Virus record (IMG/VR): IMGVR_UViG_3300037067_026753
From: a virus
DNA length: 64,000 bases
Strand: one strand, 5' to 3'
A model generated the notes under the pieces. The model worked only from the letters and a program-made list of their open reading frames with translations, was not told the DNA's origin and ran no database searches. Each line of letters begins with the position of its first letter. Positions within the stretch are counted from its first letter, which is position 1. Made by a program: the position numbers and the translations under genes. Below are positions 448-50,142 of the stretch, in pieces.

Positions 448-1509
448 TTATTCACCAAACCACCTCGCATAAAGACGCCAGTATAAATCTGTTCTCATAA
501 AATCTACAAGATGTTCATTTAATGATTCTCTATATGGGCTATCTTGTTTTAAAGCAAACCCATAGGATTGTTTGTCAAACATTTCGCCTGCAATTTTACA
601 CCTTTTTTTCCCAGCATTACTCACATAATATTTTAAAGTAGGCATATCGAAAATAACAGCATCAACTTTATTATTTGCAAGCAAATCATATGCATCTTCG
701 ATTTTTTCTGTATATGTACCTATGCAACTCATTCCTTTGACATAAGCTTCTGCTGTTGTCCCTTTTTCCGTAGCAACTTTTTTCTCGATTAAATCTTGTA
801 CAGAATTTATAGCTGATTCCGTTTTTTCCGTAGTCAAAGCTGTATTCATAGAAGCAATAATGTACGGGAAAATAAACCCAATCCCGACTAGCATAACAAT
901 AATAGTGATAAATTTACCTATTGGAGTTTGTGGTGTTTTGTCTCCATAACCTACTGTTGTAATTGTAGTTATGATCCAATATAGCCCGTCACCTGCACCT
1001 TTAATTGGATTTTTATGAAATAGTCTACCCCGTTCTACAACCCATATGCCAATAATACCTAGAAGTAAAAAAACACCAAATATTTTAAAAGGAGTACCCA
1101 TTTGCTTGAAATAAAGAATCAAAACATTCAAGATATTTACTTCTTTATCTTTATTGACACAAATACTTAAACCGGAATTCAAATAAGGGTGTGAGAAATC
1201 AAATTTGGCTTCTCTTTCCCCAGTGATAGTAATTCCAGAAATTGCAGCATCATAAATACCATTTTGCATCCCATCTAAAAGTTCTGAGAAAGTAGCCGGT
1301 ATTTCATACTTAATATCTAATTTTGCTCTTTTTGCAATTTCCTCAAATACTTCAACGTCAAAGCCTGTCGGATTTTTCCCTTGTTCAAGAATAACACAAG
1401 GAGGAAAATCATAGACCGCAACTTTTAAAGTATCAGAAGAAACTGAAAAAGAGACAAGTAATATAAACAATACAACAAAACTCTTCATACTTGTCTCTAT
1501 TCCCTTCAT
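448..1509 (-). CDS. GluR0-like ligand-gated K+ channel: a periplasmic substrate-binding domain split around an M1-P-M2 pore
   Basis: Signal peptide (MKSFVVLFILLVSF). Two SBP_bac_3-like lobes flank two TM helices and a pore loop with the K+ selectivity filter TTVGYGD. This S1-M1-P-M2-S2 order is the prokaryotic iGluR (GluR0) architecture. Confidence 0.75.
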   Translation of the reverse strand: MKGIETSMKSFVVLFILLVSFSVSSDTLKVAVYDFPPCVILEQGKNPTGFDVEVFEEIAKRAKLDIKYEIPATFSELLDGMQNGIYDAAISGITITGEREAKFDFSHPYLNSGLSICVNKDKEVNILNVLILYFKQMGTPFKIFGVFLLLGIIGIWVVERGRLFHKNPIKGAGDGLYWIITTITTVGYGDKTPQTPIGKFITIIVMLVGIGFIFPYIIASMNTALTTEKTESAINSVQDLIEKKVATEKGTTAEAYVKGMSCIGTYTEKIEDAYDLLANNKVDAVIFDMPTLKYYVSNAGKKRCKIAGEMFDKQSYGFALKQDSPYRESLNEHLVDFMRTDLYWRLYARWFGE

Positions 1510-3081: not shown

Positions 3082-3486
3082 CTATTCGACAATTGTTGAA
3101 ATTTTTTCGACGCCTTGTTTAACCATACCGAGCGTCCAACCGAGAGCAGCCTCAAGCTCATTGAGATCGAGATTTGCGATTTCAAGATTTTCCTTGAAGT
3201 AGACTTTTTTGCCATCCGAAGAGAATTTACCATGAACTGCCTGATGATTGAGTTCAAGCAGGTATTTGAACAGCAAAAACTGTTTTGATTCATCTTCAGG
3301 CACATCACAGATTTCTGATGCAATGCACACTAAAGTCGGTTCGACATCAATAAGACAGGAAAAACCTTCAGGTCCCCTGACTTCGAAAATATCTTCTCGA
3401 GTCTGGTTGTAGGCAATTCCTTCGATGTCGCACAACATTCCCAGAACAATAGAAGCATTCTGGATTTCAATTGTTGACACTGTCAT
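3082..3486 (-). CDS. small cytoplasmic protein, tentatively YbjN-like
   Basis: 134 aa, acidic, in an operon with the PspA-like gene. The family call rests on size and composition only. Confidence 0.4.
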   Translation of the reverse strand: MTVSTIEIQNASIVLGMLCDIEGIAYNQTREDIFEVRGPEGFSCLIDVEPTLVCIASEICDVPEDESKQFLLFKYLLELNHQAVHGKFSSDGKKVYFKENLEIANLDLNELEAALGWTLGMVKQGVEKISTIVE

Positions 3487-4991: not shown

Positions 4992-5498
4992 ATGGACGAT
5001 TTAGTTCAAATAAAGTTTGAAAAATTTTGTGGACAGATCAAAAAATCAAAATTGTCCCATTCTATTATTAGAACAAAAATAGAACAATGTGACAAAAGTC
5101 TATCTATATGGAAAGAGAAACTTAATGACTTAGAAAAAACTTTAGGTATTGGAACAGCATATTGGGGTATTATTTCTTTAGAAAGCAAATTTAGCAATTA
5201 TTGTAGACTTTGTATAGAAGTAAAAGATGATGGTTTCCATTTAGAGTTTCTCAAAGGTTCACCCTTTGATAGTTTTTTAAAAACAGTACAATGTTTTGAA
5301 GAGGATGAAGTTATTTGTTATAATGGGGATGACAGTCTAATAAAATTAGCAATTAAATATAGAAAAAAAGGACTTTTAAAACCTTTTGAGAAAAACCAAG
5401 ATTTTATAGATAAATATTTCTATAATTACATGCATATTATGAAACGTGAATTAATATTAAGATTTTACAACTTTTTAATTGAGCAATATAATGAATAA
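4992..5498 (+). CDS. hypothetical protein
   Basis: Intact 168-aa ORF whose stop overlaps the next gene's start. No motif. Confidence 0.45.
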   Translation: MDDLVQIKFEKFCGQIKKSKLSHSIIRTKIEQCDKSLSIWKEKLNDLEKTLGIGTAYWGIISLESKFSNYCRLCIEVKDDGFHLEFLKGSPFDSFLKTVQCFEEDEVICYNGDDSLIKLAIKYRKKGLLKPFEKNQDFIDKYFYNYMHIMKRELILRFYNFLIEQYNE

Positions 5499-6021
5499 AC
5501 TAATTTTCCCCCTTCAATTTGCTTTTATTATGTGGCTTGTGTTTTTTATTGATGCTCTTATTATACCTATAAATTTTAATAAATATGGCATTCTACCAAG
5601 ACATATAGAAGGTCTTATAGGAATTCTTCTTATGCCCTTTCTTCATGCAAATTTGTTTCATCTTATTAGCAATACAATACCCATTATTATTTTACTTTGT
5701 ATTGTTTCATTCTTCTTTTCAAAAAATTTAGAAATTGTAACAAGTATTTCCACTTTAGGCGGATTCTTTCTATGGCTTGTAGGTCGTAATTCTTACCATG
5801 TTGGTGCAAGCCTTTTAATCTTCGGTCTTGCAAGTTTCATTATATTCTTTGGAATCTTTAAAAAACAATTTTTTCCTTTAATTCTTTCAATTTTAATTTG
5901 TATAACTTACGGGACATCTCTACTTATTGGGCTCCTGCCTATTTTCCCGGGTGTTTCATGGGAGGCACATTTATGTGGTACTGTTGCTGGATTCATAACA
6001 GCAAAACAATTGGCAAAATAA
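5479..6021 (+). CDS. rhomboid-family intramembrane serine protease
   Basis: Six predicted TM helices. Catalytic-type motifs HVGASLLIFGL (GxSx) and AHLCGTVAGF (AHxxG). Confidence 0.65.
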   Translation: MSNIMNKLIFPLQFAFIMWLVFFIDALIIPINFNKYGILPRHIEGLIGILLMPFLHANLFHLISNTIPIIILLCIVSFFFSKNLEIVTSISTLGGFFLWLVGRNSYHVGASLLIFGLASFIIFFGIFKKQFFPLILSILICITYGTSLLIGLLPIFPGVSWEAHLCGTVAGFITAKQLAK

Positions 6022-6912: not shown

Positions 6913-6985
6913 TGCCCTTACCCAGATTCGAACTGAGATAGACACCGTTTTAGAGACGGCCGCTTTACCATTAAGCCATAAGGGC
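6913..6985 (-). tRNA. tRNA with anticodon CUA (amber suppressor-type; amino-acid identity not determined)
   Basis: Minus-strand 73-nt cloverleaf read by eye. Acceptor GCCCTTA/TAAGGGC with discriminator A. U8. D-stem GCTT/AAGC with loop AATGGTA carrying GG. Anticodon stem GCCGT/ACGGT and loop CTCTAAA with U33 and A37, giving anticodon CUA. T-stem CTCAG/CTGGG with a canonical TTCGAAT loop. The variable region is 6 nt, which is slightly unusual. Confidence 0.65.
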
Positions 6986-6986
6986 T

Positions 6987-7292
6987 TTATGCTGTTTTTA
7001 ATTCCTTAAAAATAATTCCATCGTCATAACATGCAATTGCAGTTAATTGGCCTTCAAGATCAGGTTCGTGAAAACTCCTATGGATTTTCCCAGATTCAGA
7101 TACTTTTGCGTGCCATGCTTTCAGTTCAAGCAAGTTACGAACTTTGAGAAAGACAATTGTTGAATTTCCCCAAATTTTGAATTGTTCAGGGAAATCAAGC
7201 GCGTATTGCGCAAGGGCATGACTGCCCTGCACAATACGATATGTCTCAGAAAGATCAGCACGCACTAACACATACATTTTCAGTGTAGGCAT
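6987..7292 (-). CDS. PTH2-type peptidyl-tRNA hydrolase (archaeal/eukaryotic type)
   Basis: KMYVLVRADLSETYRIVQGSHALAQYAL matches the PTH2 core (…VVRTDL…QCSHA…). Start placed at the internal MPTLKM. Confidence 0.55.
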   Translation of the reverse strand: MPTLKMYVLVRADLSETYRIVQGSHALAQYALDFPEQFKIWGNSTIVFLKVRNLLELKAWHAKVSESGKIHRSFHEPDLEGQLTAIACYDDGIIFKELKTA

Positions 7293-7554
7293 TTTTGATC
7301 TCCTGGACTTTGGCCATATCAGGTTTATTATTTTCAGCACAACATTTTTCAATTTGTTCATAAGTCTTTCCTTTCAAAAGACTGTAAGCTATATGATGTA
7401 AACGATAATCTTTTGCCAAATATTTTAATTGTTTAAAATAACCTCCGTCAGCACCACTATTACTTTTTTGATAAAGTTTGAGTTCTGCTGTCAGAGTTCT
7501 TATGATTGCAGCTTGTTCTTTTAAATAATTTTTGAGATTTAATATCTTTGACAT
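7255..7554 (-). CDS. hypothetical protein
   Basis: 99-aa ORF. Its 3' end would overlap the PTH2 start, so the call is uncertain. Confidence 0.3.
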   Translation of the reverse strand: MSKILNLKNYLKEQAAIIRTLTAELKLYQKSNSGADGGYFKQLKYLAKDYRLHHIAYSLLKGKTYEQIEKCCAENNKPDMAKVQEIKNAYTENVCVSAC

Positions 7555-7854
7555 TGCTAGTCTCCTGTTTATTATTGTTTTGAGTTCTGTTTGAAGATAC
7601 AGTTACAATAAAAACGGGAGACTTACAGAGGTTTAAAAACTCTTACCTATATAAAACCAATAATCTACTGCATTTTTGTCTCTTTTTAAAAGTTTATATT
7701 TGCTTTCCTTTTAAATATAATCTAAAAATTTCAAAAAGGAAACAAAAATATGATCGAGTCACTAAAACTTTCAAATCGTAAAAAGCAGATAAGCACGAAT
7801 TCATGAAAAGACCATATTGGCAAAATAAAAATGCTATTGTGATTTATTAATAAT

Positions 7855-8100
7855 ATGCTTAAAATTTCAAGGCCTAATAAAGAAAATAAGTCTAAGATAA
7901 TTTCATTACGGCTGAAACCTAATCAGATGAAGGACGTTTTAAAATTAAAAGGCGACCTTAAGTTTGAGACTGTTACAGACTTAATGTGTTATTCTTTAGA
8001 TATTTTTAAACGCTTACATGAATGGAAATTATTAAACTATCATTTTTATATTGCTAATCCAGAAAATAAAAATTACAAAGAGGTCGAACTTGAATTATGA
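7855..8100 (+). CDS. hypothetical protein; first gene of a translationally coupled operon
   Basis: ATGA overlap with the next ORF. Confidence 0.45.
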   Translation: MLKISRPNKENKSKIISLRLKPNQMKDVLKLKGDLKFETVTDLMCYSLDIFKRLHEWKLLNYHFYIANPENKNYKEVELEL

Positions 8101-8420
8101 AAACTATTACTATTACAATAGAAGCTTCAAGTCCACAAGACACGCATAAATGCACTGTCGACCCTTCTGTCGTTGTCAATCCCCCTGCAATTCAATACTT
8201 CAAAGGTATCGAATATGCTTTATTCGGTAAAAAACAACCAAGAGACGACCGTAAAACAGAAATTATAAAACATATAGTAACATGTTTGTCTTCAAAAGAT
8301 TACCCAAATCCTCCAATTTGTTCTGAACGTAAAGCAAGAAAACTAGCAAATGAACATGTCGGTTCTTTGCTTGAAAAATTGAAACATACAACAAAAACAA
8401 CTACGAGAGTAAATGTTTGA
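8097..8420 (+). CDS. hypothetical protein
   Basis: Coupled starts and stops on both sides. Confidence 0.45.
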   Translation: MKTITITIEASSPQDTHKCTVDPSVVVNPPAIQYFKGIEYALFGKKQPRDDRKTEIIKHIVTCLSSKDYPNPPICSERKARKLANEHVGSLLEKLKHTTKTTTRVNV

Positions 8421-8664
8421 AACCCTTGAATGCGTTCAATGCGGCTTTTGTTGCACGCTTGGTCCTTGTCCCTTTGGTGATTGGAACCCTATCACTCACC
8501 AGTGTAATTATTTAACCGTCAATAATAAATGTTCGAAATATGATGAAATCAAACAAAATCCATTTTCTAATTTCTCGCCAGCATTTGATACTGGCTGTTC
8601 ATCAACAATTGGAAATATTAGAAGAAAAAATAAAATAAGAGAGTTACTATGCTCTCAGAAATAA
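8413..8664 (+). CDS. YkgJ-type CxxCxxCC metal-cluster protein
   Basis: CVQCGFCC motif (CxxCGxCC) plus additional Cys residues. Confidence 0.5.
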   Translation: MFETLECVQCGFCCTLGPCPFGDWNPITHQCNYLTVNNKCSKYDEIKQNPFSNFSPAFDTGCSSTIGNIRRKNKIRELLCSQK

Positions 8665-8936
8665 CGACCTGTTCAATTTGCAGGAGAGAAACACCAGAAA
8701 AATTTTTAGAAAAACACCATCTGACTCCTGCTTCAAAAGGTGGTAAAGGCGGAAAAACAATTCTAGTATGCATTGATTGTGGAAATCAAATCCATTTGCT
8801 TTTCACAAATAATGAGTTAAGAGATTCCTACAATACTCTCGAAAAACTACTTGAACATCCTAAGATAAAAACTTGGATCAAATGGATTCGAAAACAAAAA
8901 TTCGGTGTATGTATGAAGGAGAAGAAAAAGAAATAA
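8649..8936 (+). CDS. small HNH endonuclease
   Basis: CSIC...EKHHLTPASKGGKGGKTILVCIDCGNQIH matches the HNH pattern (HH..P..GG..N..LC..CH) with a zinc-binding Cys pair. Confidence 0.55.
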   Translation: MLSEITTCSICRRETPEKFLEKHHLTPASKGGKGGKTILVCIDCGNQIHLLFTNNELRDSYNTLEKLLEHPKIKTWIKWIRKQKFGVCMKEKKKK

Positions 8937-8937
8937 A

Positions 8938-9756
8938 ATGGAAACTTTTTCTGATAATGGCCTAATTGTTTCAAGAAAAGACAATGTTACGACATTATCT
9001 TCTGAAACCGACTCTAGTTTTACAAAAAAAATCAAAACAAAAATCTATATGCCTGATGAATATACTCGAGCTTATAATGAAGTCTTGTCAGGAGAAGACG
9101 TAATCGTTCTGGGTATGAATGGATTCTCAACTATTACTCCAGAACGTTGTTCTGAATGGGGAATACAATTTGGAGCTTATGAAGCTGCTTGTGAATTTCT
9201 TCTTTCTCATGCAATTGAAAAATTACAACATTATTTCAGAGGTATTAGTATTAGACTTGCCAATGGAGCCTCAGATATTGGTGTTGATCTCGCTATAAAT
9301 AACACTGCTAAAAAATTTGGATTACCATTGCTTGGACACAGTTGTCCCAAGTATTTAAAATATGTCAGGGAAGATATTGACATTCCTATATACGTGGCTC
9401 AAAATCAAGAAAGATACTCTAATGCTTTCACAGATTCATTAGATATTCTTATTACAGCAAATGGTGGTGAAGTTACTTTCAAAGCTGATATTGATGCAGC
9501 TTTCAATAAAGCAAAACATGTAATCCCAATTGATATATTGAGTAGCATTTCGACTACTGGTGGTCCACCTGCTTTTGACAAAAATGGAAAAGTGCTTGAC
9601 GCAGTAAAAGCTTTTAACGAAAGAGTACACATTATTGCAATGCAAATAAATAATGCAGGAGCAGACCAATGGGAAACTATAGTCGATAACTGCGAAAAAA
9701 TAATAACATCAATAAGCCGCAAAAAACTATCCGCAAAAAGAGCATTCAGAATCTAA
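8938..9756 (+). CDS. Rossmann-like protein, tentatively LOG/DprA (SLOG)-like
   Basis: IRLANGASDIGVDLAINNTAKKFGLPLLGH and ITANGGEVTF resemble the G-rich nucleotide-binding loops of LOG/DprA-type folds. The family assignment is tentative. Confidence 0.4.
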   Translation: METFSDNGLIVSRKDNVTTLSSETDSSFTKKIKTKIYMPDEYTRAYNEVLSGEDVIVLGMNGFSTITPERCSEWGIQFGAYEAACEFLLSHAIEKLQHYFRGISIRLANGASDIGVDLAINNTAKKFGLPLLGHSCPKYLKYVREDIDIPIYVAQNQERYSNAFTDSLDILITANGGEVTFKADIDAAFNKAKHVIPIDILSSISTTGGPPAFDKNGKVLDAVKAFNERVHIIAMQINNAGADQWETIVDNCEKIITSISRKKLSAKRAFRI

Positions 9757-9891
9757 ATGCAAACATTACAAGATCTCTATAATTCTATCCCAAAATTTAC
9801 TTGTACACCAGGTTGCAATCTATGCTGTGGCCCTACACCATGCAATACTATTGAACAACAAATTCTTAACATACAACAACCTATATTGCCA
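9757..9891 (+). CDS. second small CxxCxxCC protein (44 aa)
   Basis: CTPGCNLCCGP motif. Abuts the stop of the previous gene. Not in the ORF track because it is under 60 aa. Confidence 0.35.
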
Positions 9892-10305
9892 TAAATTTAT
9901 AGAATCAAAACCTTTAGCCTTTATTGTCTCTACAACTTGTTTAATAAATTCTTTTACAGCTTTAAATGATTGATAAGTCTCATCCCTTGAAAGATCTTTA
10001 TACTTGTTTATGATCATAAACTTATCAATTTGAGCAACAAGATCAGCATTTTCTTTACTAAATTGTTCTTTCTTTTTCCCAAACTCCTTATGGTATCCTA
10101 TAAATTTTTCTTTAAACCCTTCAGGTAAATCTTTATTGCCCTTTATCATGTCAATGACATCCATGTAGGGTACATGTCTATTAACAATAAATTCAGCATA
10201 AATAGCTTTTACATCTTTGTCGTTCTTGACAAATTTTTCAAATTCAATTCGTGTTTTTTCGGATGCAAAAGCAACAACTTCACGTACTATTTTTTCATAA
10301 TTCAT
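9820..10305 (-). CDS. hypothetical protein
   Basis: Intact 161-aa ORF, K/E-rich. Confidence 0.45.
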   Translation of the reverse strand: MNYEKIVREVVAFASEKTRIEFEKFVKNDKDVKAIYAEFIVNRHVPYMDVIDMIKGNKDLPEGFKEKFIGYHKEFGKKKEQFSKENADLVAQIDKFMIINKYKDLSRDETYQSFKAVKEFIKQVVETIKAKGFDSINLWQYRLLYVKNLLFNSIAWCRATA

Positions 10306-11355: not shown

Positions 11356-12051
11356 TTGTTGTCTCATTCATCATACGATTTGTCATATCAAATACTTTCA
11401 CAATCGGGCTGCATATCGCATGCATTAGTATCTTTGTTATACAATATGTATCCATGCTCACTTATGACACCTTTGACAAAAAATCCAAATATGCTTCATA
11501 AAGCTATCATAACAGCATACAGAGAAAAAACACATTTTTATTTCTCTTGCTTTATCTTTGTTTATAAAACCAGCATGACGCATAAAAAAGACAATTTTCT
11601 CAGTTTTAAAGACATAAAAACAACATGTATGCTGTTTAAAAAATACCATCGTCTCAAAATAGCGATACGTAATCACTATTTCATAGTACATATTTACAAT
11701 AATCCCAAAGACTTGATATCCTTCGTCGATAAATATGAAGGCAAACCCAGAACAGCAAAAGCAAGCAAATTAAGCGGTGCATACCTTGTCAATATAAGCA
11801 ATAATAAGAAAATAGGCACCATAGCGCTTACATTTCAAGCTCTAGCACACCCATTAATCATACACGAATGTAGTCATGCAGCTCTATCCTACCACTCCAC
11901 CATATTCAATAAAAACGACAAACCTACTATCAATACGAGTAAACAAGAAGAATTTTTCTGTGACCTTGTCAGTTTCTTATATGCTGAAATAACTAACTAT
12001 ACTACGAATTCATATAGAACGCTCAATACGCGTGTCGGTAAAATAATATGA
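11356..12051 (+). CDS. HExxH zinc-metallopeptidase-like protein, possibly ImmA/IrrE-type (true start may be the internal Met near 11575)
   Basis: ALAHPLIIHECSHAALSYH contains HExxH plus a downstream His, as in ImmA/IrrE-type peptidases. The 5' part of the ORF may be non-coding. Confidence 0.45.
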   Translation: MLSHSSYDLSYQILSQSGCISHALVSLLYNMYPCSLMTPLTKNPNMLHKAIITAYREKTHFYFSCFIFVYKTSMTHKKDNFLSFKDIKTTCMLFKKYHRLKIAIRNHYFIVHIYNNPKDLISFVDKYEGKPRTAKASKLSGAYLVNISNNKKIGTIALTFQALAHPLIIHECSHAALSYHSTIFNKNDKPTINTSKQEEFFCDLVSFLYAEITNYTTNSYRTLNTRVGKII

Positions 12052-12225
12052 AAATTGGTAGTAACATAATAAACTTACGACATTAAGGAAAATTATGGAA
12101 GAATTAATTGAAGCTCTACAGATTTTATTAAAATATGGGTGTCCTCAATTCCCAACACATTGTGAACATGACACTTTATGTAGACATAAATCCTGATCTA
12201 GTAAACGCTGATGATCTGAGTAGAC

Positions 12226-28710: not shown

Positions 28711-29796
28711 TTACGGCTCCGGAAAGAAACCGGCACCGGCCAGAATGGAGCTTGCCTTGCGCACAATGCTCTTCTTGTTTTTCGGGTTTGTACTTGCTAA
28801 ACCCGCAAGTTCTGCAGGTACACTTTCGCCCGGAAGATTCTGGATAAGGGCCAGTGTAATCTCGATGATTTCGTTCCCGGTGAGTCCGTCCAGTGAAATT
28901 TTACCACCGGATTGCGTCGTCTTGAGTTCGGCTATCTTGTCAGCGTGAATTCTGGCCATCTCAGCCCGCACAACTTTCTTGTTGGCCTTCTTGGTTCCGG
29001 TTTCTTTCTTTTCACTGTTCCGGCGCATGGATTTCTCGGTGGCGTGGTCCAGCAATGGAATTGCGTTCGGGTCAATTTCCTTGCCAGCGTTGAGTGACAC
29101 AACCTCGTAGCGGCATACCCGCATTTTCTGGTTGTTGTAGTCTTCAGGCACCGCAACCACGTCTCGGGGATTTACCTTGACCTCGATCTTGACGTTATGG
29201 TTATACTGACTCCAGACGTAGTCGAAAGCAGCAACATGCAAGCCGTTGCTGCAAGTTTCTCTGCGGCTCGGGTTGACTCTGGCACGGTCCATGGTAACCA
29301 CTGCACCGATATTATTGCAGAAGTTACCAGTATAAGCGTCTACCAGATCGCCTTTATCGTTGCGGTTCACGCCCTTGTACGCAAGGAAGCAACCGTCGTG
29401 TGTGATGACCATCCTGTTGGCTTCCAGGAAAAGAAACAAGTGCGCCTTGCTCTCTTCGCTGGGATTTGATTGAATGTTGCGCCAGAAGTTGAGCAGCGGT
29501 AAATACGGCAGCTCTTTTCTTGCGAACTCGACGATACGATCGATGATCACATCATGTACTTCGGTACCGTCAATCATGACGGTACCAGCATCGCGGTCAA
29601 CGCTGAATTCGCCCTGGCCGTAGTTTTCGATTTTCTTGGCGACATCCAGCTGAGCAAGTATTTCATCGTCACTTGCGCCGGATGTGAGAAGCGGCAAGAT
29701 TTTGTCATGCTTCTCGGAACCGATTTCCAGGGTGATGGGCCGCATCGACCCGATCGATACCACCAGGTATCTACCTGTGGACAACCATTGTGCCAT
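28711..29796 (-). CDS. hypothetical protein (361 aa)
   Basis: Element at 29797-29840. No motif. Confidence 0.5.
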   Translation of the reverse strand: MAQWLSTGRYLVVSIGSMRPITLEIGSEKHDKILPLLTSGASDDEILAQLDVAKKIENYGQGEFSVDRDAGTVMIDGTEVHDVIIDRIVEFARKELPYLPLLNFWRNIQSNPSEESKAHLFLFLEANRMVITHDGCFLAYKGVNRNDKGDLVDAYTGNFCNNIGAVVTMDRARVNPSRRETCSNGLHVAAFDYVWSQYNHNVKIEVKVNPRDVVAVPEDYNNQKMRVCRYEVVSLNAGKEIDPNAIPLLDHATEKSMRRNSEKKETGTKKANKKVVRAEMARIHADKIAELKTTQSGGKISLDGLTGNEIIEITLALIQNLPGESVPAELAGLASTNPKNKKSIVRKASSILAGAGFFPEP

Positions 29797-29868
29797 ATAA
29801 ACTCTCCTTGTTAATGTTCCTTAGCTATATCGCTTCTTTTTTCTCGAGTGCCAACATTTGCCTGAACT

Positions 29869-30129
29869 TCACTTTGCACTGGAAGATCCTATCATCCTTT
29901 GCATCTGCAATACGGTGATCATCTTGTATTTACCGTTTATAAAACCTCGATATTTTTGATATGCTTCATTCCAGTGCATTGGACCTTTAGATGTGGCATA
30001 AGCTCTCTTCATATTTTTAGGTGGACCTTTATCGGGCATTTGTTCCTCCAGTGTAAAAAAAAGGCCCTCCTTGCGACTCGCTGGTTGAGGGCTACCCCTG
30101 GATGTCCAATGGGCTTCGTAGGTATCCAT
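29869..30129 (-). CDS. small ORF; alternative start at 30039 (MPDKGPP) just after a terminator-like hairpin
   Basis: SD GGAGGAACAA precedes the ATG at 30039. The longer frame reads through the hairpin. Confidence 0.3.
   Translation of the reverse strand: MDTYEAHWTSRGSPQPASRKEGLFFTLEEQMPDKGPPKNMKRAYATSKGPMHWNEAYQKYRGFINGKYKMITVLQMQRMIGSSSAK
30053..30093 (-). terminator. intrinsic terminator
   Basis: Minus strand AGCCCTCAACCAGCGAGTCGCAAGGAGGGCC followed by TTTTTTTT. Confidence 0.5.
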
Positions 30130-30241
30130 TAGATGAGTCTACCGGAGCTCATACTTTGCGTGTTTTTACCTTGCGGTAATCATTCCGGTCTAGTATGCTC
30201 CGGTATAGCTTTATATCACACGCTCACGTGCAAATTGCCAT

Positions 30242-30541
30242 TTATTCTTCAGGGTCCATGAGTCTTGAATAGACCATACATTCGAATTCAACCCTTGCAT
30301 CGACTTCTTTGAGGATTTCCTGTACTGTGCTCTGATCTGTGTAGCCAAAGATTCTGACTTTTTTTCGCCATACTCCGTTGGCATCTTCTTCAAAGGTGAC
30401 CATAACCTTATGACCCAGAACATCCACTACGTAATTATGATTGGCAGTCAGTCCTGCAAATGACAGTTCTGAAAGCGTCGAATTTGCTTCAAAAGGATAC
30501 TGCCTTGCATAGGACGTAACAGTTGCTATTGATTTATCCAT
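30242..30541 (-). CDS. cassette gene, hypothetical (99 aa)
   Basis: Element CGCGATATAGTTAGTACAGGAGGGATAAC then ATG. Confidence 0.5.
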   Translation of the reverse strand: MDKSIATVTSYARQYPFEANSTLSELSFAGLTANHNYVVDVLGHKVMVTFEEDANGVWRKKVRIFGYTDQSTVQEILKEVDARVEFECMVYSRLMDPEE

Positions 30542-30682
30542 GTTATCCCTCCTGTACTAACTATATCGCGCTTTAAAAGCACTACTGCCCGCAGCCCGTT
30601 TAGCATAAATACAAGTGGGGTAATGGTTTCCTATTACCCCTACTTTCAATATGTGCTCGTGCCTATTCGCGCTGATTGATAA

Positions 30683-32860
30683 TTATACCAGTTTACCTGC
30701 CTGTATTAAGGCATTTTCACGTTCCGTTATGTATTCTTGTATTGTGCTTGAGTTGCAATCAAGCTCATACCGGCTCAAGTAATTGAGCATAGGGAACGAC
30801 TTGTACATGGCATCAATCTGTGTTTTCAAGTTGCTCAACTGGCTTGTTGCCGCATATTTTTTCACCAGCTCATCAGGCACCGTTATTTCAAGCTTTATTG
30901 ACAAACTCTTTATAAGAGTCATCAAGTCACAAAAGGTTTTGCTTGCATATTTGTATCTCTGCAACCAGGTTTTGTCGCCCACAATTGTCATTATACTGCT
31001 TGCATCGATCAATTGTGTAATTATCGCTGGTGTAAGTAACTTGCGTTTCTCATCAAGACTCTCAACCAGACCAACCAGCCTTGAACCCCGGTTTTTATTT
31101 GCATATATTACATTGAATGCAGGTACCAGTTTCGCTTTCATTGCAATACGGAGCATCCGATACTCATCATCCTGGTATGAAATGTTCGGTATCTGGAGTA
31201 TATCATCCACAAGCACCAGAGCATAGTTAGCCGACGTAAAAGGCGAACCGCTCTCGCTTGTTATTTGATTTCCATCAACCTTGATATATTGATAAGTGCC
31301 CGGTTTGCTGGATGCACCCCGTCTTGCATAGTGGATATCCTGGTCAAAATATTGTATCCAGACTTTGAGCGTATCAGGTTGACGGACACTGGGTATTTTC
31401 ACCGTACCAGCATTAGTTTTGGTCACTTTCATCTTTTCAACTTGGCTATATAAGGAATATGTTATGCCCAGTTTTGCAAGCGTTTTAATATCCTTGAGAT
31501 ACCGGCGGTAACCCTTGTTGATTGTCCTGCGGTCTTCTTTATTGAGTTCCCAATACCGCAAGTACTTGGGTTCCGTAGGCCGTATGGCTATATAATCGTT
31601 CCCGCCAGCAAAGATCGTGGCATCCTTTAAAGGTATATAGGACGGTGTTGCATCGAACAAGAAGACTCTGTCTTTGATAAGTGAAGTACTGATTTCAGTT
31701 GTCTTTGTTCTGGTCACTTTCCCGTGGTCATTTGACACATCAAAAAACTGGAGCGTCTGGAAATGACTGTCAAGCCGCAGATTCAATGACCGGTTGTCAA
31801 AGTTCTTCACCTCTTTCCAGTACGGGTCACTACCTGATAAATGTGCATCAAGGTACTTGTAAAGCGTCCCTTGTTTTGTGCTCTGATAAAACAAAGCAGC
31901 CTGCAACCAGGTAGTGCATTTCTTGAACTCAGTTTGATAGACAGACTTGACTTCATTTATAAAAGCCACAAAAGCAAGATTGATTGCGCTCTTTGTTTTC
32001 TCGTCGTACTGGACATGTTCCCGGTTAGCACTTATTGTAAGCACACCAACCGGAAACTTGAATATGACTTGGTGGTCATAAATGGTGTGTCCTGCCCAGT
32101 TGATTTGTGAACTTGAAATCGGGTAGAAGATACCGTCAAGCAACAACCCATATCCCTGACCCAGGAAATCCTGCTTGACTATCATGAATTGGTCGTTGTC
32201 AAGCACCGTTTCGATTTTGAGGCGTTCAAGTTTGAGCCCGAAGTTTTTGTATACCGGGCGCATCGGCCAGAAGATAGTTGCTTTGTAGCATTCCTGCTCA
32301 AAGTTAGTACGGTCGCCTGATTTGATCGGGACCAGTATCGTTGTACCGTTAGCTTCTTGCGTTTCAGCCGTATCAATGCAGTATATTTTGCCCTTGCGGC
32401 CCTGTTCGATTGCAGCCACATAAGTATACTTGATACCAGCAACGATTGTTTCGATCGTAAAATTGTCTGTGTAACTGAAAGGCGTTTTGGCGCCCAAGCC
32501 AAAGCCACCAGTGAAAGTGTCGCTCTCTCTCTTGGTTGAACTCCCGTAGTTGACAAACACATCAGCCATGCGTTCAGGAGATATACCAGTACCGAAATCC
32601 TTAAAGTATATCACCATGTCGCTCATGCTCAAGTGGCTGTTGGCAATACCAATTTCGATCGGTACGTTGTTTTCAGCTTCACGGTTGGCGTCTCTGGAAT
32701 TGCTGCTCACTTCCCTGCAAATTGCACCAATTGGGTTACTGTACAACTTGCTGCGCAGTATTTCGAGTATCAAGCCCATATCAGCTTCTTTGATACCGAA
32801 ACTGAGCTCTTGGAATGCAGCGCTCGTTGTTACGGTTGTCGGTTTGCCTGCTAACTTCAT
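30683..32860 (-). CDS. GHKL-superfamily ATPase (HATPase_c N-terminal domain) with a large uncharacterised C-terminal region
   Basis: N-box EVSSNSRDANRE, G1 box DFGTGIS and G2 box TGGFGLGAKT in the first ~200 aa. No Toprim or MutL C-terminal motifs seen. Confidence 0.6.
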   Translation of the reverse strand: MKLAGKPTTVTTSAAFQELSFGIKEADMGLILEILRSKLYSNPIGAICREVSSNSRDANREAENNVPIEIGIANSHLSMSDMVIYFKDFGTGISPERMADVFVNYGSSTKRESDTFTGGFGLGAKTPFSYTDNFTIETIVAGIKYTYVAAIEQGRKGKIYCIDTAETQEANGTTILVPIKSGDRTNFEQECYKATIFWPMRPVYKNFGLKLERLKIETVLDNDQFMIVKQDFLGQGYGLLLDGIFYPISSSQINWAGHTIYDHQVIFKFPVGVLTISANREHVQYDEKTKSAINLAFVAFINEVKSVYQTEFKKCTTWLQAALFYQSTKQGTLYKYLDAHLSGSDPYWKEVKNFDNRSLNLRLDSHFQTLQFFDVSNDHGKVTRTKTTEISTSLIKDRVFLFDATPSYIPLKDATIFAGGNDYIAIRPTEPKYLRYWELNKEDRRTINKGYRRYLKDIKTLAKLGITYSLYSQVEKMKVTKTNAGTVKIPSVRQPDTLKVWIQYFDQDIHYARRGASSKPGTYQYIKVDGNQITSESGSPFTSANYALVLVDDILQIPNISYQDDEYRMLRIAMKAKLVPAFNVIYANKNRGSRLVGLVESLDEKRKLLTPAIITQLIDASSIMTIVGDKTWLQRYKYASKTFCDLMTLIKSLSIKLEITVPDELVKKYAATSQLSNLKTQIDAMYKSFPMLNYLSRYELDCNSSTIQEYITERENALIQAGKLV

Positions 32861-37290: not shown

Positions 37291-38379
37291 TTACTTGCCA
37301 CATATTTTCTTTATATCAGGTTCGGGCACCCATATGCCCTGGTATTTTGTCAACTCTCCATTGCACTTAAATAATAACTCTCCAGCTCCTTTAAGGCGCT
37401 CAGCCCCCGGCTCATCAAGTATTATGCGACTATCTTGTCTGCTCTCTACTCTAAAAGCCACCCTTGCTGGCATGTTAGCCTTTATCAAACCTGTCATTAT
37501 TTCGACTACCGGGCGCTGTGTTGCCATTACAATATGCATACCAGCAGCCCTTGCCAACTGTGCCAACCGAGTTATTTTATCACTTATTGTCTTGTCTTCG
37601 CTCTGCATCATCAAGTCAGCCACCTCATCAATTACCAAAACTATATATGGTAACTTTGTTTTGGCTACTTGGTTATATGCATCAAGAGATTTAACGTCGT
37701 GCCTTGCAAGCAACTCATACCGGCTCTCCATTTCGTCTACCAAACTACTAAGCAAACCGCTTGCTTGGTCAAGTTTAGTAGCTATAGGTGCATACAAGTG
37801 CGGTACGCTCCGGTACAAAGCAAACTCAACCCGTTTTGGGTCAACCAATGCGAGTTGCACTTGCTCCGGCTGTAATTTATACAACAAACTCAGTATAGCA
37901 ACGTTCAAGAAAACAGATTTACCCGAGCCAGTAGTACCGGCTACCAATAAATGGGGCATACGGCTCAAATCAATTACCTTGTTTGCGCTCAATACTACTG
38001 GCAACCGCTCATTTGCTATATGATTAAAGGTTGTTATGCCCGTAAAATCAAGTGGAGTGGCATTAACTACAGGAGTGCTAACGTCTGGTGTAGTTGATGC
38101 CACTAAATCTGCAGGAAACATTATCAAATACTTGCTCACTTCAAAATCAATCTCTCCTATATATTTAAGGTCGCGCTCAATTTTATCAAGCTTACTCGCT
38201 ATCATCCCTACGTTCACACGTTTTATGCGCTCTACCTCGTCCTCCACCTCACTATAATGTAACCTGGCCTGCATTTGCCTTATGTCTAACGGGCTCGCGC
38301 CGCACCCTACCATGCTACTCAACGTTTTACACAACGCCCGGTCAACTTTCAAAGTTTCCAATATCTCCTTAAGATTCAT
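37291..38379 (-). CDS. FtsK/SpoIIIE-family DNA translocase ATPase (soluble motor domain only)
   Basis: Walker A LVAGTTGSGKSV. Walker B IVLVIDEVADLMM. FtsK signature ATQRP…ARVAFRV. No N-terminal TM region or gamma domain. Confidence 0.75.
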   Translation of the reverse strand: MNLKEILETLKVDRALCKTLSSMVGCGASPLDIRQMQARLHYSEVEDEVERIKRVNVGMIASKLDKIERDLKYIGEIDFEVSKYLIMFPADLVASTTPDVSTPVVNATPLDFTGITTFNHIANERLPVVLSANKVIDLSRMPHLLVAGTTGSGKSVFLNVAILSLLYKLQPEQVQLALVDPKRVEFALYRSVPHLYAPIATKLDQASGLLSSLVDEMESRYELLARHDVKSLDAYNQVAKTKLPYIVLVIDEVADLMMQSEDKTISDKITRLAQLARAAGMHIVMATQRPVVEIMTGLIKANMPARVAFRVESRQDSRIILDEPGAERLKGAGELLFKCNGELTKYQGIWVPEPDIKKICGK

Positions 38380-49038: not shown

Positions 49039-50142
49039 TTAAAAAATTCCGTTGTTGAGCGTTTCGATTGTTTCAGTGCGTGTTTTCCATTCGTATTTCC
49101 CCGTTCTAGCTATTGATATGTTTCCTATTTCAAATGGAGTAGTTTGGGCGTTACCTATATCGTTGGATTTGCTCCTTGTGACCATGGAAATTTTTATTGC
49201 GCGTACTGTTTTCTTTTTGGCAACTGATACACTGTCGAGCCATACAAATTTGCCGTAGTCCTGGCGTCTTACTTCAACACCATTGAGCATAAGTTGCCCT
49301 GAACTTTTTGTCCAGTATCGTATGGCAATTTTTCCTGTAGACGTTGCTTGCGTGTTGATTGTCAGGTGCTGGACGCGATTAACAGGCAGGAATTTTTCCA
49401 CGCCCTTGTTTACTGTACTGTTGACAATACAACATTGTAGCGAATCGAATATTTTGTCAGATACAATATCCAGTGCGACATTAAGGCGTTGGTTGGTGTC
49501 ATTTGCAAATGATGTGTTGTAATAGATCATCCCTCTGCTTATACCAGAGAAATCGAACCGAACAGAGGAGCCTACGACTGTTGCTGTTGGTGTCGCACCG
49601 GATTCTGAGGCAATCAACCAGTTGCCGGGGATAGGTATCGGGTTCAAGTCCTGGAGCATCGAATCATTGGCAAATACTCCATATTGAAATTGTAGTCCTT
49701 GTACGTTAGCGCAAAATCGCAATTTCTGATTGTTGAGTTTCCTTATAAGGTTGTTCGAATCCAAATAGAATTCAACCGAGTCGGTCCGGACGTATTCACC
49801 GGTTTCTGACAGTTTTGCTTTGTAAATTTTCAGAGTGTCACTTGGGTCGCCCTGGCGTGCAACAAATGATGATGAATCCGCGATAAATGCGTTCGAAACA
49901 AGGTGTTTGTCGAATTTGGTGCCGTTGGGCGTCAGGTAGAATTTGCAGCCCATGTTGCGTATTTCGCGTACAAGGACGACAAGTGCATCTCTTGCATCGA
50001 TCTGCATTTTTGTCATTTGCTGGGTTCTGTTGCTACTCTTGGTTATGTCGGCATAGGATTTGTGCCAGAGTGAAATGACGATGCCGAAGATTACAATGCA
50101 GATCAGCAGTTCGATAATTGAAAGACCTTTTTGGTTGTTCAT
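49039..50142 (-). CDS. type IV minor pilin (PilW-like) with a class III (prepilin) signal
   Basis: MNNQKG|LSIIELLICIVIFGIV: Gly at -1, Glu at +5, hydrophobic helix. Confidence 0.6.
   Translation of the reverse strand: MNNQKGLSIIELLICIVIFGIVISLWHKSYADITKSSNRTQQMTKMQIDARDALVVLVREIRNMGCKFYLTPNGTKFDKHLVSNAFIADSSSFVARQGDPSDTLKIYKAKLSETGEYVRTDSVEFYLDSNNLIRKLNNQKLRFCANVQGLQFQYGVFANDSMLQDLNPIPIPGNWLIASESGATPTATVVGSSVRFDFSGISRGMIYYNTSFANDTNQRLNVALDIVSDKIFDSLQCCIVNSTVNKGVEKFLPVNRVQHLTINTQATSTGKIAIRYWTKSSGQLMLNGVEVRRQDYGKFVWLDSVSVAKKKTVRAIKISMVTRSKSNDIGNAQTTPFEIGNISIARTGKYEWKTRTETIETLNNGIF

What the first reader, a model, noticed from the sequence alone, without database searches (positions are those of the whole stretch)
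7855..9891. Tightly coupled six-gene operon with two YkgJ-type CxxCxxCC proteins, an HNH nuclease and a Rossmann/LOG-like protein
Six consecutive ORFs (7855, 8097, 8413, 8649, 8938 and 9757) overlap or abut by 1-15 nt. That implies translational coupling and stoichiometric function. Two of them carry the CxxCGxCC / CxxCxxCC signature of YkgJ-family metal-cluster proteins. One is a 95-aa HNH endonuclease. The largest has G-rich loops reminiscent of LOG/DprA (SLOG) nucleotide-binding folds. Nuclease plus SLOG-like plus small Fe/Zn-cluster proteins is a combination seen in nucleotide-signalling defence systems, but I cannot match it to a named system.
Basis: partly seen in the sequence, partly recalled or inferred. 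Interest (0 to 1): 0.5.

Follow-up and report, generated by a model that had tools for sequence, protein, structure and literature searches.

The report
Phage accessory cassette with SLOG and HNH
The six tightly packed genes are real, but they are a strain-specific cassette of accessory genes in what is most likely a huge bacteriophage, not a conserved defence system; its two recognisable genes are an HlpB-like HNH protein and a member of a rare SLOG nucleotide-binding family that sits inside NAD-salvage operons in other organisms.

Summary

The system-level reading fails. In 25 other distinct loci with an ORF5 homolog and 92 loci with an ORF4 homolog, none carries any of the other five genes. 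ORF1, ORF2 and ORF6 have no homologs in any fetched locus, and ORF3 has one homolog in 5.8 billion clusters. PADLOC finds nothing. Tight junctions are common across the window.

The window encodes RIIA and RIIB, a homing endonuclease and an amber-suppressor tRNA, and its relatives are 200-640 kb phage contigs. It is therefore most likely a huge phage mis-binned as Nanoarchaeia.

ORF5's family is rare (133 hits among 1.84 billion representatives) and lies outside Pfam's SLOG families. In Patescibacteria it is embedded in Preiss-Handler NAD-salvage operons.

Only ORF3 has CxxCGxCC, with no match to the YkgJ profile. ORF6 has CxxxCxxCC and is doubtful as a gene.

A side finding is a conserved module in huge phages: 99-aa protein, PTH2-like protein, often the HNH, then a suppressor tRNA.

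The parts
7855..8100 (+). ORF1, 81 aa, orphan. Its N-terminal pattern (short strand IISLRL followed by two helices) might suggest a ribbon-helix-helix regulator; this is my inference and was not tested.
   Evidence: ORF. No hit in Pfam, PADLOC, NCBIfam or PDB sequences. No homolog in any of the 130+ fetched loci except identical copies.
8097..8420 (+). ORF2, 107 aa, orphan of unknown function; overlaps ORF1 by 4 nt (ATGA).
   Evidence: No family or PDB sequence hit. No homolog in fetched loci.
8413..8664 (+). ORF3, 83 aa, small Cys-rich protein with CxxCGFCC...PC...CxYLT...KCSKYDEIK...GCSST; probably binds metal.
   Evidence: One homolog among 5.8 billion clusters (P0020, 53% identity), which keeps all the cysteines. 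No match to PF03692 or any other model. In the homolog's contig it is followed by an unrelated zinc-ribbon-like ORF, not an HNH.
8649..8936 (+). ORF4, 95 aa, stand-alone HNH (beta-beta-alpha-Me) protein of the HlpB/YisB-like family. It has a CxxC...CxxC zinc site, an HH...N...H motif and a conserved basic C-terminal tail.
   Evidence: Pfam HNH_5 1.6e-6. NCBIfam NF058586 HlpB 6.2e-22, full length, 77.9 bits against a cut-off of 130. 76 homolog clusters at 46-92% identity, mostly 53-67%. AF2 model pLDDT 83; best fold hit is the Gme HNH nicking endonuclease 4h9d.
8938..9756 (+). ORF5, 272 aa, SLOG-fold protein of a rare, unnamed clade. Conserved motifs: GMNG(F/Y)S, GAYEAAC, GASxxGVD, LGHSCP, ANG(G/R)xxxFxxD, ISTTGGPPA.
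9757..9894 (+). ORF6, 45 aa, Cys-rich (CxxxCxxCCxxxxC). Doubtful as a gene.
   Evidence: Not called on any database contig. Its 3' 75 nt overlap the convergent 161-aa gene. Shares only a 10-residue motif with ORF3 (E=0.05). No homologs in any fetched locus.
7555..7854 (.). AT-rich divergent intergenic region between the 99-aa gene (minus strand) and ORF1 (plus strand). Likely promoter region; holds a 17-bp indel polymorphism (7799-7815) between population variants.
   Evidence: Promoter-like sites at 7548-7575 (11 of 12 matches) and 7693-7721 (10 of 12), though the site count is no higher than in shuffles. Indel seen.
6913..7554 (-). Divergent neighbouring module: 99-aa protein (7255-7554), PTH2-like protein (6987-7361; called start probably 7292), and tRNA with anticodon CUA (6913-6985). 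In other huge-phage contigs this module directly adjoins the ORF4-type HNH.
   Evidence: tRNA. PTH2-like: phrog_1866 1.5e-8, Pfam PTH2 0.0084. Module conserved in L037, L118, L122 and L069.
9820..10305 (-). Convergent 161-aa orphan gene that bounds the cassette and overlaps ORF6; a terminator-like hairpin lies at 9742-9760 on the minus strand.

Best explanation
The block is a co-directional, probably co-transcribed cassette of accessory genes in a huge (at least several hundred kb) bacteriophage genome. It was assembled in this one phage lineage from unrelated parts and is not a conserved multi-protein system.

Shown here:
- ORF4 is a small HlpB/YisB-like HNH protein. Its family is common in huge-phage contigs, where it lies in or beside tRNA arrays, RNA-repair genes and a suppressor-tRNA/PTH2-like module.
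- ORF5 is a stand-alone SLOG-fold protein of a rare clade.
- The other four ORFs are lineage-restricted orphans. One (ORF3) is a conserved Cys-rich, probably metal-binding protein, and one (ORF6) may not be a gene.

Inferred:
- ORF5 binds or cleaves a nicotinamide- or ADP-ribose-type nucleotide. Its cellular relatives sit inside nicotinamidase / NAPRTase / NMNAT-NAD-kinase / NAD-synthase operons. A phage relative sits next to a MazG-NadD fusion and a NUDIX gene.
- In the phage it would then serve NAD+ homeostasis or the removal of NAD-derived immune signals early in infection. That is the role already predicted for viral SLOG domains.
- ORF4 acts separately on DNA, by binding or nicking, possibly modulating an AddAB/RecBCD-type end-processing enzyme as HlpB genetics suggests.
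For: - Phage context: full-length RIIA (phrog_612, 1.2e-69), RIIB (2.2e-56), phage-type FtsK and a homing endonuclease lie in the window. RIIA's best GenBank phage hit is a 462-kb uncultured phage.
- ORF4's only GenBank phage hits are uncultured phages of 485-642 kb, and it occurs in 12 IMG/VR contigs, up to 470 kb.
- The PTH2-like neighbour hits Lak megaphages. Identical proteins are listed on a 424-kb contig.
- Not a unit: tblastn of all six ORFs against 25 other distinct loci (29 contigs) with an ORF5 homolog and 92 loci with an ORF4 homolog finds no co-occurrence. Pfam over 138 neighbours of ORF5 homologs shows no HNH or CxxCxxCC among the 25 most frequent families.
- The closest relatives, L037, L036 and L009, have different partner genes.
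- Packing is genome-wide.
- ORF5 fold.
- NAD link: the SLOG gene lies between isochorismatase and NAPRTase in L017 (4-nt overlap), between isochorismatase and NMNAT-NAD kinase in L029, and after NAPRTase in L005. NAD/ADPR-related genes lie within 8 kb in 11 of 26 loci. L009 has MazG-NadD plus NUDIX.
- Literature: SLOG domains are reported in 31% of jumbo phages and predicted to counter ADPr-derived immune signals (PMC9503650).
- ORF4 as HlpB-like.
Against: - No virion gene was identified in the 64-kb window. RIIA and RIIB lie in a 46%-GC segment (18-50 kb), while the cassette lies in the 33%-GC part, so a cellular chromosome carrying a prophage is not strictly excluded.
- The window also encodes cell-like proteins: rhomboid, PspA, a CesT-like chaperone, a pilin-like protein and a Na/Ca exchanger.
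- Co-transcription is inferred from geometry alone. No terminator was found on the plus strand, and the promoter scan is not above background.
- The NAD link is guilt by association in a minority of loci. There is no NAD gene near ORF5 in the window itself.
- ORF5 lacks LOG's PGGxGTxxE catalytic motif (it has ANG[G/R]xxxFxxD), so catalysis is uncertain.
- Iyer et al. note sporadic SLOG-HNH fusions in phages, which leaves room for a functional link between ORF4 and ORF5.
Confidence: 0.6

Rival explanations
1. ORF5 and ORF4 form a functional sensor-effector pair, possibly with ORF1 as regulator and ORF3/ORF6 as metal-binding accessories. The SLOG domain would sense an NAD- or ADPr-derived signal and switch on the HNH nuclease, either as a defence system carried by the phage or as a system used against competitors.
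Against: No co-occurrence of these two families in 25 other distinct SLOG loci (29 contigs) and 92 HNH loci. No PADLOC match. The HNH is a highly conserved stand-alone family (53-67% identity across phyla) with its own independent contexts. In the closest relatives the SLOG gene has other neighbours, and the HNH is 3.6 kb away (L009) or absent (L036, L037).
Confidence: 0.12
2. The low-GC part of the window, cassette included, is the chromosome of a host-associated bacterium. In that case the 18-50 kb segment with RIIA and RIIB is an integrated phage or mobile element, and the cassette is a bacterial genomic islet.
For: GC jumps from about 33% to 46% at roughly 18 kb and falls back at roughly 50 kb. 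Cell-like genes lie in the low-GC part: rhomboid, PspA, a CesT-like chaperone, a Na/Ca exchanger and a pilin-like protein. A relative (L009) encodes a sigma-70 factor. ORF5's family is mostly cellular.
Against: Genes of the low-GC part itself have phage relatives. The PTH2-like protein hits Lak megaphages and jumbo phages. The 99-aa/PTH2-like/tRNA-CUA module and the HNH recur on IMG/VR contigs of 94-470 kb. A homing endonuclease lies at 59.1 kb. Nearly all proteins are ORFans, with no housekeeping gene found. Huge phages are known to carry sigma factors and membrane proteins (my knowledge, not tested here).
Confidence: 0.15
3. ORF5 works with the adjacent translation-related module (suppressor tRNA, PTH2-like protein), for example on a tRNA-linked or modified-adenine nucleotide as LOG enzymes do, rather than on NAD metabolites.
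For: In L037 the ORF5 homolog is followed directly by the 99-aa gene, the PTH2-like gene and tRNA-CUA on the same strand. In the window the module lies 1.4 kb upstream. LOG-clade SLOG enzymes act on AMP-derived or tRNA-derived nucleotides.
Against: The adjacency is seen only in two closely related genomes (69% identity in the 99-aa protein), so it may be simple synteny. The other 24 loci with ORF5 homologs lack the module, and the four other loci with the module lack ORF5.
Confidence: 0.08

Closest known systems
Stand-alone SLOG-domain proteins of jumbo phages (Iyer, Burroughs, Anantharaman and Aravind 2022, PMC9503650)
   Same: A stand-alone SLOG-fold protein encoded by a very large phage among accessory genes. 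A relative sits next to NUDIX and NAD-biosynthesis genes. The predicted role is binding or processing NAD/ADPr-derived nucleotides.
   Different: [quoted passage not shown] ORF5 belongs to a separate rare family that no Pfam SLOG model reaches at its gathering score. It has an extra N-terminal beta region and a C-terminal helical extension, and has no Macro or NADAR partner here.
LOG (Lonely Guy) cytokinin riboside 5'-monophosphate phosphoribohydrolases and PpnN/YgdH
   Different: 11-17% identity. The PGGxGTxxE catalytic motif is replaced by ANG[G/R]xxxFxxD. There are two invariant cysteines (C85, C136) and a distinctive ISTTGGPPA loop. No sequence-level match to LOG models.
Thoeris ThsA SLOG domain (3'cADPR sensor)
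   Different: No fused SIR2, TM or Macro effector, and no TIR (ThsB) gene nearby. PADLOC negative. Most likely encoded by a phage.
Bacillus subtilis HlpB (YisB), NCBIfam NF058586
   Same: Same size (95 vs 100 aa). Full-length profile match at E=6e-22. Stand-alone HNH with a zinc-binding CxxC pair.
   Different: The score of 77.9 bits is below the equivalog cut-off of 130, so it is a homolog and not the same protein. It is phage-encoded and lies beside tRNA and RNA-repair genes rather than in a Bacillus chromosome. Whether it cleaves DNA is unknown.
YkgJ / CxxCxxCC family (Pfam PF03692)
   Same: ORF3 has the N-terminal CxxCGxCC motif and further conserved cysteines.
   Different: No profile match for ORF3, for its homolog P0020 or for ORF6 at E<=1. 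ORF6's motif has different spacing (CxxxCxxCC).

Membership tests
SLOG superfamily (LOG / DprA / MoCo carrier / YpsA / ThsA-SLOG / TRPM MHR1-2) | Three-layer Rossmannoid alpha/beta fold that superimposes on known SLOG structures | tested here: met
SLOG superfamily (LOG / DprA / MoCo carrier / YpsA / ThsA-SLOG / TRPM MHR1-2) | Conserved glycine-rich or polar nucleotide-contacting loop after strand 1, and a Gly-containing loop before the helix after strand 4 | tested here: met
   Invariant N61-G62 in GMNG(F/Y)S after strand 55-62. Invariant G176 in ANG(G/R) after strand 170-174.
SLOG superfamily (LOG / DprA / MoCo carrier / YpsA / ThsA-SLOG / TRPM MHR1-2) | Match to a named Pfam SLOG family at its gathering score | tested here: not met
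   ORF5: LDcluster4 at E=0.0094, 16 bits against 26.3. Across 18 family members: YAcAr in 2 (best 8.9e-6) and LDcluster4 in 1. Distant relatives give only weak LSDAT_prok or YAcAr hits.
LOG family proper (phosphoribohydrolase) | PGGxGTxxE catalytic motif | tested here: not met
   The family alignment shows ANG[G/R]xxxFxxD at the equivalent position. The equivalence was placed by secondary-structure register, not by a structural alignment.
HNH / His-Me finger nucleases (Pfam HNH_5, PF14279) | Profile match at or above the gathering score | tested here: met
   ORF4: E=1.6e-6, 28.4 bits against 27.5.
HNH / His-Me finger nucleases (Pfam HNH_5, PF14279) | Beta-beta-alpha-metal fold with conserved H...N/D...H and a CxxC...CxxC zinc site | tested here: met
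   Invariant C8, C11, H23, H24, C44 and H49; near-invariant C41. Model pLDDT 83. Best Foldseek hit 4h9d, the Gme HNH nicking endonuclease, probability 1.0, followed by the HNH domains of Cap5, Cas9 and McrA.
HlpB / YisB (NCBIfam NF058586, equivalog) | Score at or above the curated equivalog cut-off (130 bits) | tested here: not met
   77.9 bits, E=6.2e-22, covering 4-94 of 95 residues against profile positions 5-93 of 99. This makes it a homolog, not an equivalog.
HlpB / YisB (NCBIfam NF058586, equivalog) | Cooperative DNA binding without detectable cleavage; synthetic relation with AddAB | not testable with these tools
   Properties taken from Pediaditakis et al. 2012 as summarised in PMC3765158.
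YkgJ / CxxCxxCC (Pfam PF03692) | CxxCxxCC motif near the N-terminus | tested here: inconclusive
   ORF3 has CVQCGFCC, which meets the motif. ORF6 has CTPGCNLCC, with spacing 3 rather than 2, which does not.
YkgJ / CxxCxxCC (Pfam PF03692) | Match to the family profile | tested here: not met
   No Pfam hit at E<=1 for ORF3, ORF6 or P0020. No NCBIfam hit at E<=10 apart from a spurious HdrC match at 1.2.
Known anti-phage defence systems (PADLOC-DB v2) | At least one protein matching a defence-system model | tested here: not met
   The only hit is a spurious Cas8b match at E=0.027 for ORF4. There are no hits for the other nine proteins.
Thoeris (ThsA/ThsB) | SLOG fused to a SIR2, TM or Macro effector, plus a TIR-domain ThsB gene nearby | tested here: not met
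   ORF5 is a single-domain protein with no SIR2, TIR or Macro domain among its neighbours.
Conserved multi-gene system (operon conserved as a unit) | Co-occurrence of the component genes in diverged genomes | tested here: not met
   None of 25 other distinct ORF5 loci (29 contigs) and none of 92 ORF4 loci carries any other member. All six genes occur together only on near-identical contigs of one viral population, from at least 8 samples.

The most novel reading that the evidence does not exclude
ORF5's family may be an unrecognised enzyme of NAD recycling. It would be a SLOG-fold N-glycosidase or transferase acting on a pyridine or ADP-ribose nucleotide, for example releasing nicotinamide from NMN, NR or NAD for the adjacent nicotinamidase and NAPRTase. 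On this reading it is a standard part of the Preiss-Handler operon in some Patescibacteria, and huge phages have captured it to rebuild or protect the NAD+ pool, or to destroy NAD-derived immune signals, during infection.
Probability: 0.2. Interest if true: 0.65.

Novelty: new member of a known kind. Interest (0 to 1): 0.35.

Why it matters
As a 'defence operon' the finding does not hold up, and it should not be counted as a new system.

Two things remain of moderate interest.

First, ORF5 defines a rare SLOG clade with about 130 representatives among 1.8 billion. It has no Pfam family, its operon context in Patescibacteria ties it to NAD salvage, and it also appears in huge phages. This gives a concrete and cheap biochemical hypothesis about a missing step in NAD recycling. 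It also adds a candidate to the growing list of phage tools against NAD-depleting immunity.

Second, the neighbouring module (99-aa protein, PTH2-like protein, often the HlpB-like HNH, then a suppressor tRNA) recurs in unrelated huge-phage contigs. It may be relevant to how such phages deploy stop-codon suppression.

The work also corrects a probable mis-binning: a 'Nanoarchaeia' MAG contig that carries phage rIIA and rIIB.

Tried and rejected
- TAG recoding as a confounder: none of the six ORFs ends in TAG. Reading TAG or TGA as sense gives no convincing gene extensions in the window.
- PADLOC, PHROGs, Pfam and NCBIfam on all six ORFs: only ORF4 gave hits, plus a weak one for ORF5.
- PDB sequence searches: the ORF5 profile hit only spurious TPR repeats. 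ORF1-3 and the PTH2-like protein gave nothing significant.
- AFDB Foldseek library: not available.
- Homology between ORF3 and ORF6: only a 10-residue Cys motif, E=0.05.
- Homology between ORF6 and the small 'PCxCxGISCxNxxCxxWW' ORFs that overlap SLOG genes in L036 and L009: the Cys spacings differ, so I did not claim it.
- Population SNPs to test selection on ORF6: only two synonymous SNPs in ORF5 and one intergenic indel, which is uninformative.
- The 424-kb contig listed for the identical proteins could not be retrieved; the longest contig returned was 74 kb.
- Extra PHROG scans of 10 more window ORFs found no virion genes.
- Literature searches for a LOG/SLOG NMN nucleosidase or a SLOG gene in NAD-salvage operons found nothing. 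Nor did searches for a suppressor-tRNA/PTH2 module in huge phages.
- The idea that the amber suppressor derives from tRNA-Gln: its acceptor stem and overall sequence differ from the neighbouring phage tRNA-Gln genes.
Full report
**1. The observation**

The six ORFs are present at the stated coordinates on the + strand: 7855-8100, 8097-8420, 8413-8664, 8649-8936, 8938-9756 and 9757-9894 (sequence). Consecutive genes overlap by 4, 8 and 16 nt, are then separated by 1 nt, and finally abut. The stop codons are TGA, TGA, TAA, TAA, TAA and TAA. A tRNA with a CUA anticodon lies just upstream, but it does not alter these frames.

Tight junctions are a property of the whole window. With a simple ATG-only gene call, 28 of 85 same-strand junctions outside the cluster have a gap of 2 nt or less, and 18 of 40 do in the low-GC part. 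The run of four (five with ORF6) is the longest in the window, but roughly one such run per window is expected. The geometry therefore fits co-transcription. It is not evidence of stoichiometric function.

ORF6 is the weakest member. It is 45 aa and was not called on any of the nine database contigs that carry the locus. It overlaps the convergent 161-aa gene by 75 nt, and a terminator-like hairpin for that gene lies at the ORF5/ORF6 junction.

**2. The individual proteins**

*ORF4.* It passes the Pfam HNH_5 gathering score (E=1.6e-6). It matches NCBIfam NF058586, 'HNH nuclease-like protein HlpB', over its full length (E=6.2e-22, 77.9 bits, below the 130-bit equivalog cut-off). HlpB/YisB of B. 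subtilis is a 100-aa stand-alone HNH-like protein. It binds DNA cooperatively, showed no cleavage, and is essential unless addAB is deleted (PMC3765158, citing Pediaditakis 2012).

ORF4 has 76 homolog clusters at 46-92% identity over the whole length, most of them between 53% and 67%. C8, C11, H23, H24, C44 and H49 are invariant, and there is a conserved basic tail. An AlphaFold2 model (pLDDT 83) is closest to the Geobacter HNH nicking endonuclease 4h9d, then to the HNH domains of Cap5, Cas9 and McrA.

- TRPM MHR1/2, ShosA and YpsA

*ORF3.* It has the CxxCGxCC motif plus further cysteines. Its single homolog among 5.8 billion clusters (P0020, 53% identity) conserves all of them. Neither protein matches PF03692 or any other model.

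*ORF6.* It has CxxxCxxCC, a different spacing, and shares only a 10-residue motif with ORF3 (E=0.05).

*ORF1 and ORF2.* They have no detectable relatives or family matches.

**3. Is the block a unit? No.**

I collected 25 further distinct loci with ORF5 homologs, on 29 contigs (18 protein clusters, 22 genome loci and several metagenome contigs). I also collected 92 loci with ORF4 homologs (80 metagenome and 12 IMG/VR).

- tblastn with all six proteins found ORF1, ORF2 and ORF6 nowhere, ORF3 only on two sub-kilobase contigs, and no case where ORF4 and ORF5 homologs lie in the same locus.
- A Pfam scan of 138 neighbours of ORF5 homologs shows no HNH or CxxCxxCC domain among the 25 most frequent families.
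- All six genes occur together only on near-identical contigs of one population. That population was recovered from at least eight samples and varies only by a 17-bp intergenic indel and two synonymous SNPs.

The three closest relatives of ORF5 (54-59% identity) show the neighbourhood being shuffled:
- L037: a 131-aa gene, the ORF5 homolog, then homologs of the window's divergent upstream pair and the tRNA.
- L036: a Cys-rich 113-aa gene, the ORF5 homolog, a zinc-ribbon-like 73-aa gene, then a 214-aa gene.
- L009: a 122-aa gene, the ORF5 homolog, a 43-aa Cys-rich ORF, a MazG-NadD fusion and a NUDIX gene, with an unrelated larger HNH 3.6 kb away.

**4. What the window is**

The NCBI record is a MAG contig labelled Candidatus Nanoarchaeia. 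The window nevertheless encodes:
- a full-length RIIA (phrog_612, 1.2e-69)
- RIIB (2.2e-56)
- a phage-type FtsK/SpoIIIE protein
- a homing endonuclease

RIIA's best GenBank phage match is a 462-kb uncultured phage. ORF4's only GenBank phage matches are uncultured phages of 485-642 kb, and its family occurs on 12 IMG/VR contigs, up to 470 kb. The PTH2-like gene next to the cassette matches Lak megaphages and other jumbo phages. Identical proteins are listed on a 424-kb contig. Almost all other proteins are ORFans.

I conclude that this is most likely a huge phage.

The caveat is compositional. RIIA and RIIB sit in a 46%-GC segment (18-50 kb), while the cassette sits in 33%-GC DNA, and I found no virion gene in the window. 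The low-GC part does, however, have its own phage-type relatives.

**5. Independent contexts of the two recognisable genes**

*The HNH family.* Its recurrent neighbours are RNA-ligase-like proteins (23 loci), RtcB, a small protein that looks DUF4326-like by motif (not scanned), ThiF/E1-like and JAB-like proteins, radical SAM enzymes and tRNA arrays.

A module of [99-aa protein, then PTH2-like protein, then tRNA(CUA)] is conserved in the window, L037, L118, L122 and L069. The HNH lies between the PTH2-like gene and the tRNA in L122 and L069, and immediately upstream of the module in L118. In the window the same module is divergent from ORF1. In Lak-B7 a UUA-anticodon suppressor tRNA lies about 590 nt from the PTH2-like gene.

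*The SLOG family.* It is rare: 133 hits at E<=1e-3 among 1.84 billion representatives, and 68 at E<=1e-30. It lies outside the named Pfam SLOG families. It is chromosomal in Obscuribacterales, several Patescibacteria and a few other MAGs, and occurs on one 309-kb IMG/VR contig.

In three diverged genomes it is embedded in Preiss-Handler NAD-salvage operons:
- L017: isochorismatase, SLOG, NAPRTase (4-nt overlap), NUDIX.
- L029: isochorismatase, SLOG, NMNAT-NAD kinase, and further downstream NAPRTase.
- L005: isochorismatase, NMNAT-NAD kinase, NAPRTase, SLOG, DUF1152, an unknown gene, NAD synthase.

NAD/ADPR-related genes lie within 8 kb in 11 of 26 loci.

**6. Mechanism (inferred)**

The fold, the many invariant polar residues (N61, E82, C85, S112, D117, C136, D184, S205, D221, R261) and the operon context suggest that ORF5 binds or cleaves a pyridine or ADP-ribose nucleotide.

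It lacks LOG's PGGxGTxxE motif and has ANG[G/R]xxxFxxD at the equivalent position (placed by secondary-structure register, not by a structural alignment). So it is not a LOG enzyme in the strict sense, and it could be a binder rather than a catalyst.

Iyer et al. (PMC9503650) found SLOG domains in 31% of jumbo phages. They predicted that these domains sense or degrade ADPr-derived immune signals. They also noted co-occurrence with NUDIX, Macro and NADAR domains and sporadic fusions to HNH and HTH domains. ORF5 fits that picture as a new member from a different clade.

ORF4 most likely acts on DNA independently, possibly in relation to host AddAB/RecBCD, by analogy with HlpB genetics.

**7. Verdict**

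The ORF cluster is real, and two of the domain calls are right. It is a lineage-specific phage accessory cassette, not a conserved six-gene or defence system.

Novelty is at the level of a new member of a known kind: a phage SLOG protein and an HlpB-like HNH. Two leads are modest but testable: the link between the SLOG family and NAD salvage, and the suppressor-tRNA/PTH2-like/HNH module.

Noticed in passing
window 6913-7554 (minus strand); L037 1574-2209; L118 6001-7312; L122 5422-6335; L069 1412-2316; L131 1841-2752: A conserved huge-phage module: a 99-aa protein, then a PTH2-like protein, then an amber-suppressor tRNA (anticodon CUA), seen in five independent loci. The ORF4-type HNH is inserted between the PTH2-like gene and the tRNA in L122 and L069, and lies just upstream in L118. 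In Prevotella phage Lak-B7 a UUA-anticodon suppressor tRNA lies about 590 nt from the PTH2-like gene. I found no description of this linkage in the searched literature.
   Followed up: partly
window 28711-32860 (minus strand), 37291-38379 (minus strand), 59100-60026 (plus strand): Full-length RIIA (725 aa) and RIIB (361 aa), a phage-type FtsK/SpoIIIE protein and a homing endonuclease are present. The contig, deposited as a Candidatus Nanoarchaeia MAG (GCA_028717785.1, JAQUND010000007.1), is most likely a mis-binned huge phage.
   Followed up: partly
window about 18000-50000: This segment has about 46% GC against about 33% in the flanks. It has few long ORFs between 18 and 28 kb. GC skew flips sharply near 40 kb (-0.34 to +0.43), which coincides with a switch from minus-strand to plus-strand genes. 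An independent assembly (L002) spans the 18-kb boundary, so it is not an assembly chimera. The origin of the segment is unexplained.
   Followed up: partly
L017 7068-10875; L029 7030-12342; L005 2257-10595: Homologs of ORF5 are embedded, on the same strand and with short or overlapping junctions, in NAD-salvage operons (nicotinamidase-like isochorismatase, NAPRTase, NMNAT-NAD kinase fusion, NAD synthase, NUDIX). The genomes are Patescibacteria-type MAGs and one unassigned metagenome contig, L005.
   Followed up: yes
L036 338-679; L009 6734-6865: Small ORFs with a shared Cys motif (PCxCxGISCxNxxCxxWW) overlap the start (L036) or the end (L009) of the ORF5 homolog. This parallels Cys-rich ORF6 abutting ORF5 in the window, but the Cys spacing differs and homology could not be shown.
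   Followed up: partly
window 7799-7815: A 17-bp indel polymorphism in the divergent intergenic (promoter) region separates two otherwise near-identical population variants. The only other differences in 3.5 kb are two synonymous SNPs in ORF5 (8961, 9618) and, in one copy, one change at 10034.
   Followed up: no
L009 3382-4263 (minus strand), 7133-8713, 11503-12120: The related contig carries, around its ORF5 homolog, an MBL-fold gene with a weak Anti-Pycsar Apyc1 hit, a MazG-NadD-like fusion, a NUDIX gene and an RNA-ligase-like gene. Together these look like a nucleotide or anti-defence gene neighbourhood.
   Followed up: no
L130 10113-10643: On the only IMG/VR contig with an ORF5 homolog (309 kb), a 176-aa ORF 1.4 kb downstream has a 'GDAKGAD' motif. 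From memory this is reminiscent of another SLOG or YpsA-like family; it was not scanned.
   Followed up: no
L119 3343-3743; L121 2123-2471; L122 55-11778: Huge-phage contigs carrying the HlpB-like HNH also encode tmRNAs (L119, L121) or a 16-gene tRNA array (L122) within 6 kb of the HNH.
   Followed up: no
window 448-1509 (minus strand), 3082-3486 (minus strand), 5479-6021 (plus strand), 49039-50142 (minus strand): Cell-like genes on the presumed phage: a ligand-gated K+ channel-like protein (SBP_bac_3 plus Ion_trans_2), a CesT-type chaperone, a rhomboid protease and a pilin-like protein with an N-terminal methylation motif.
   Followed up: no
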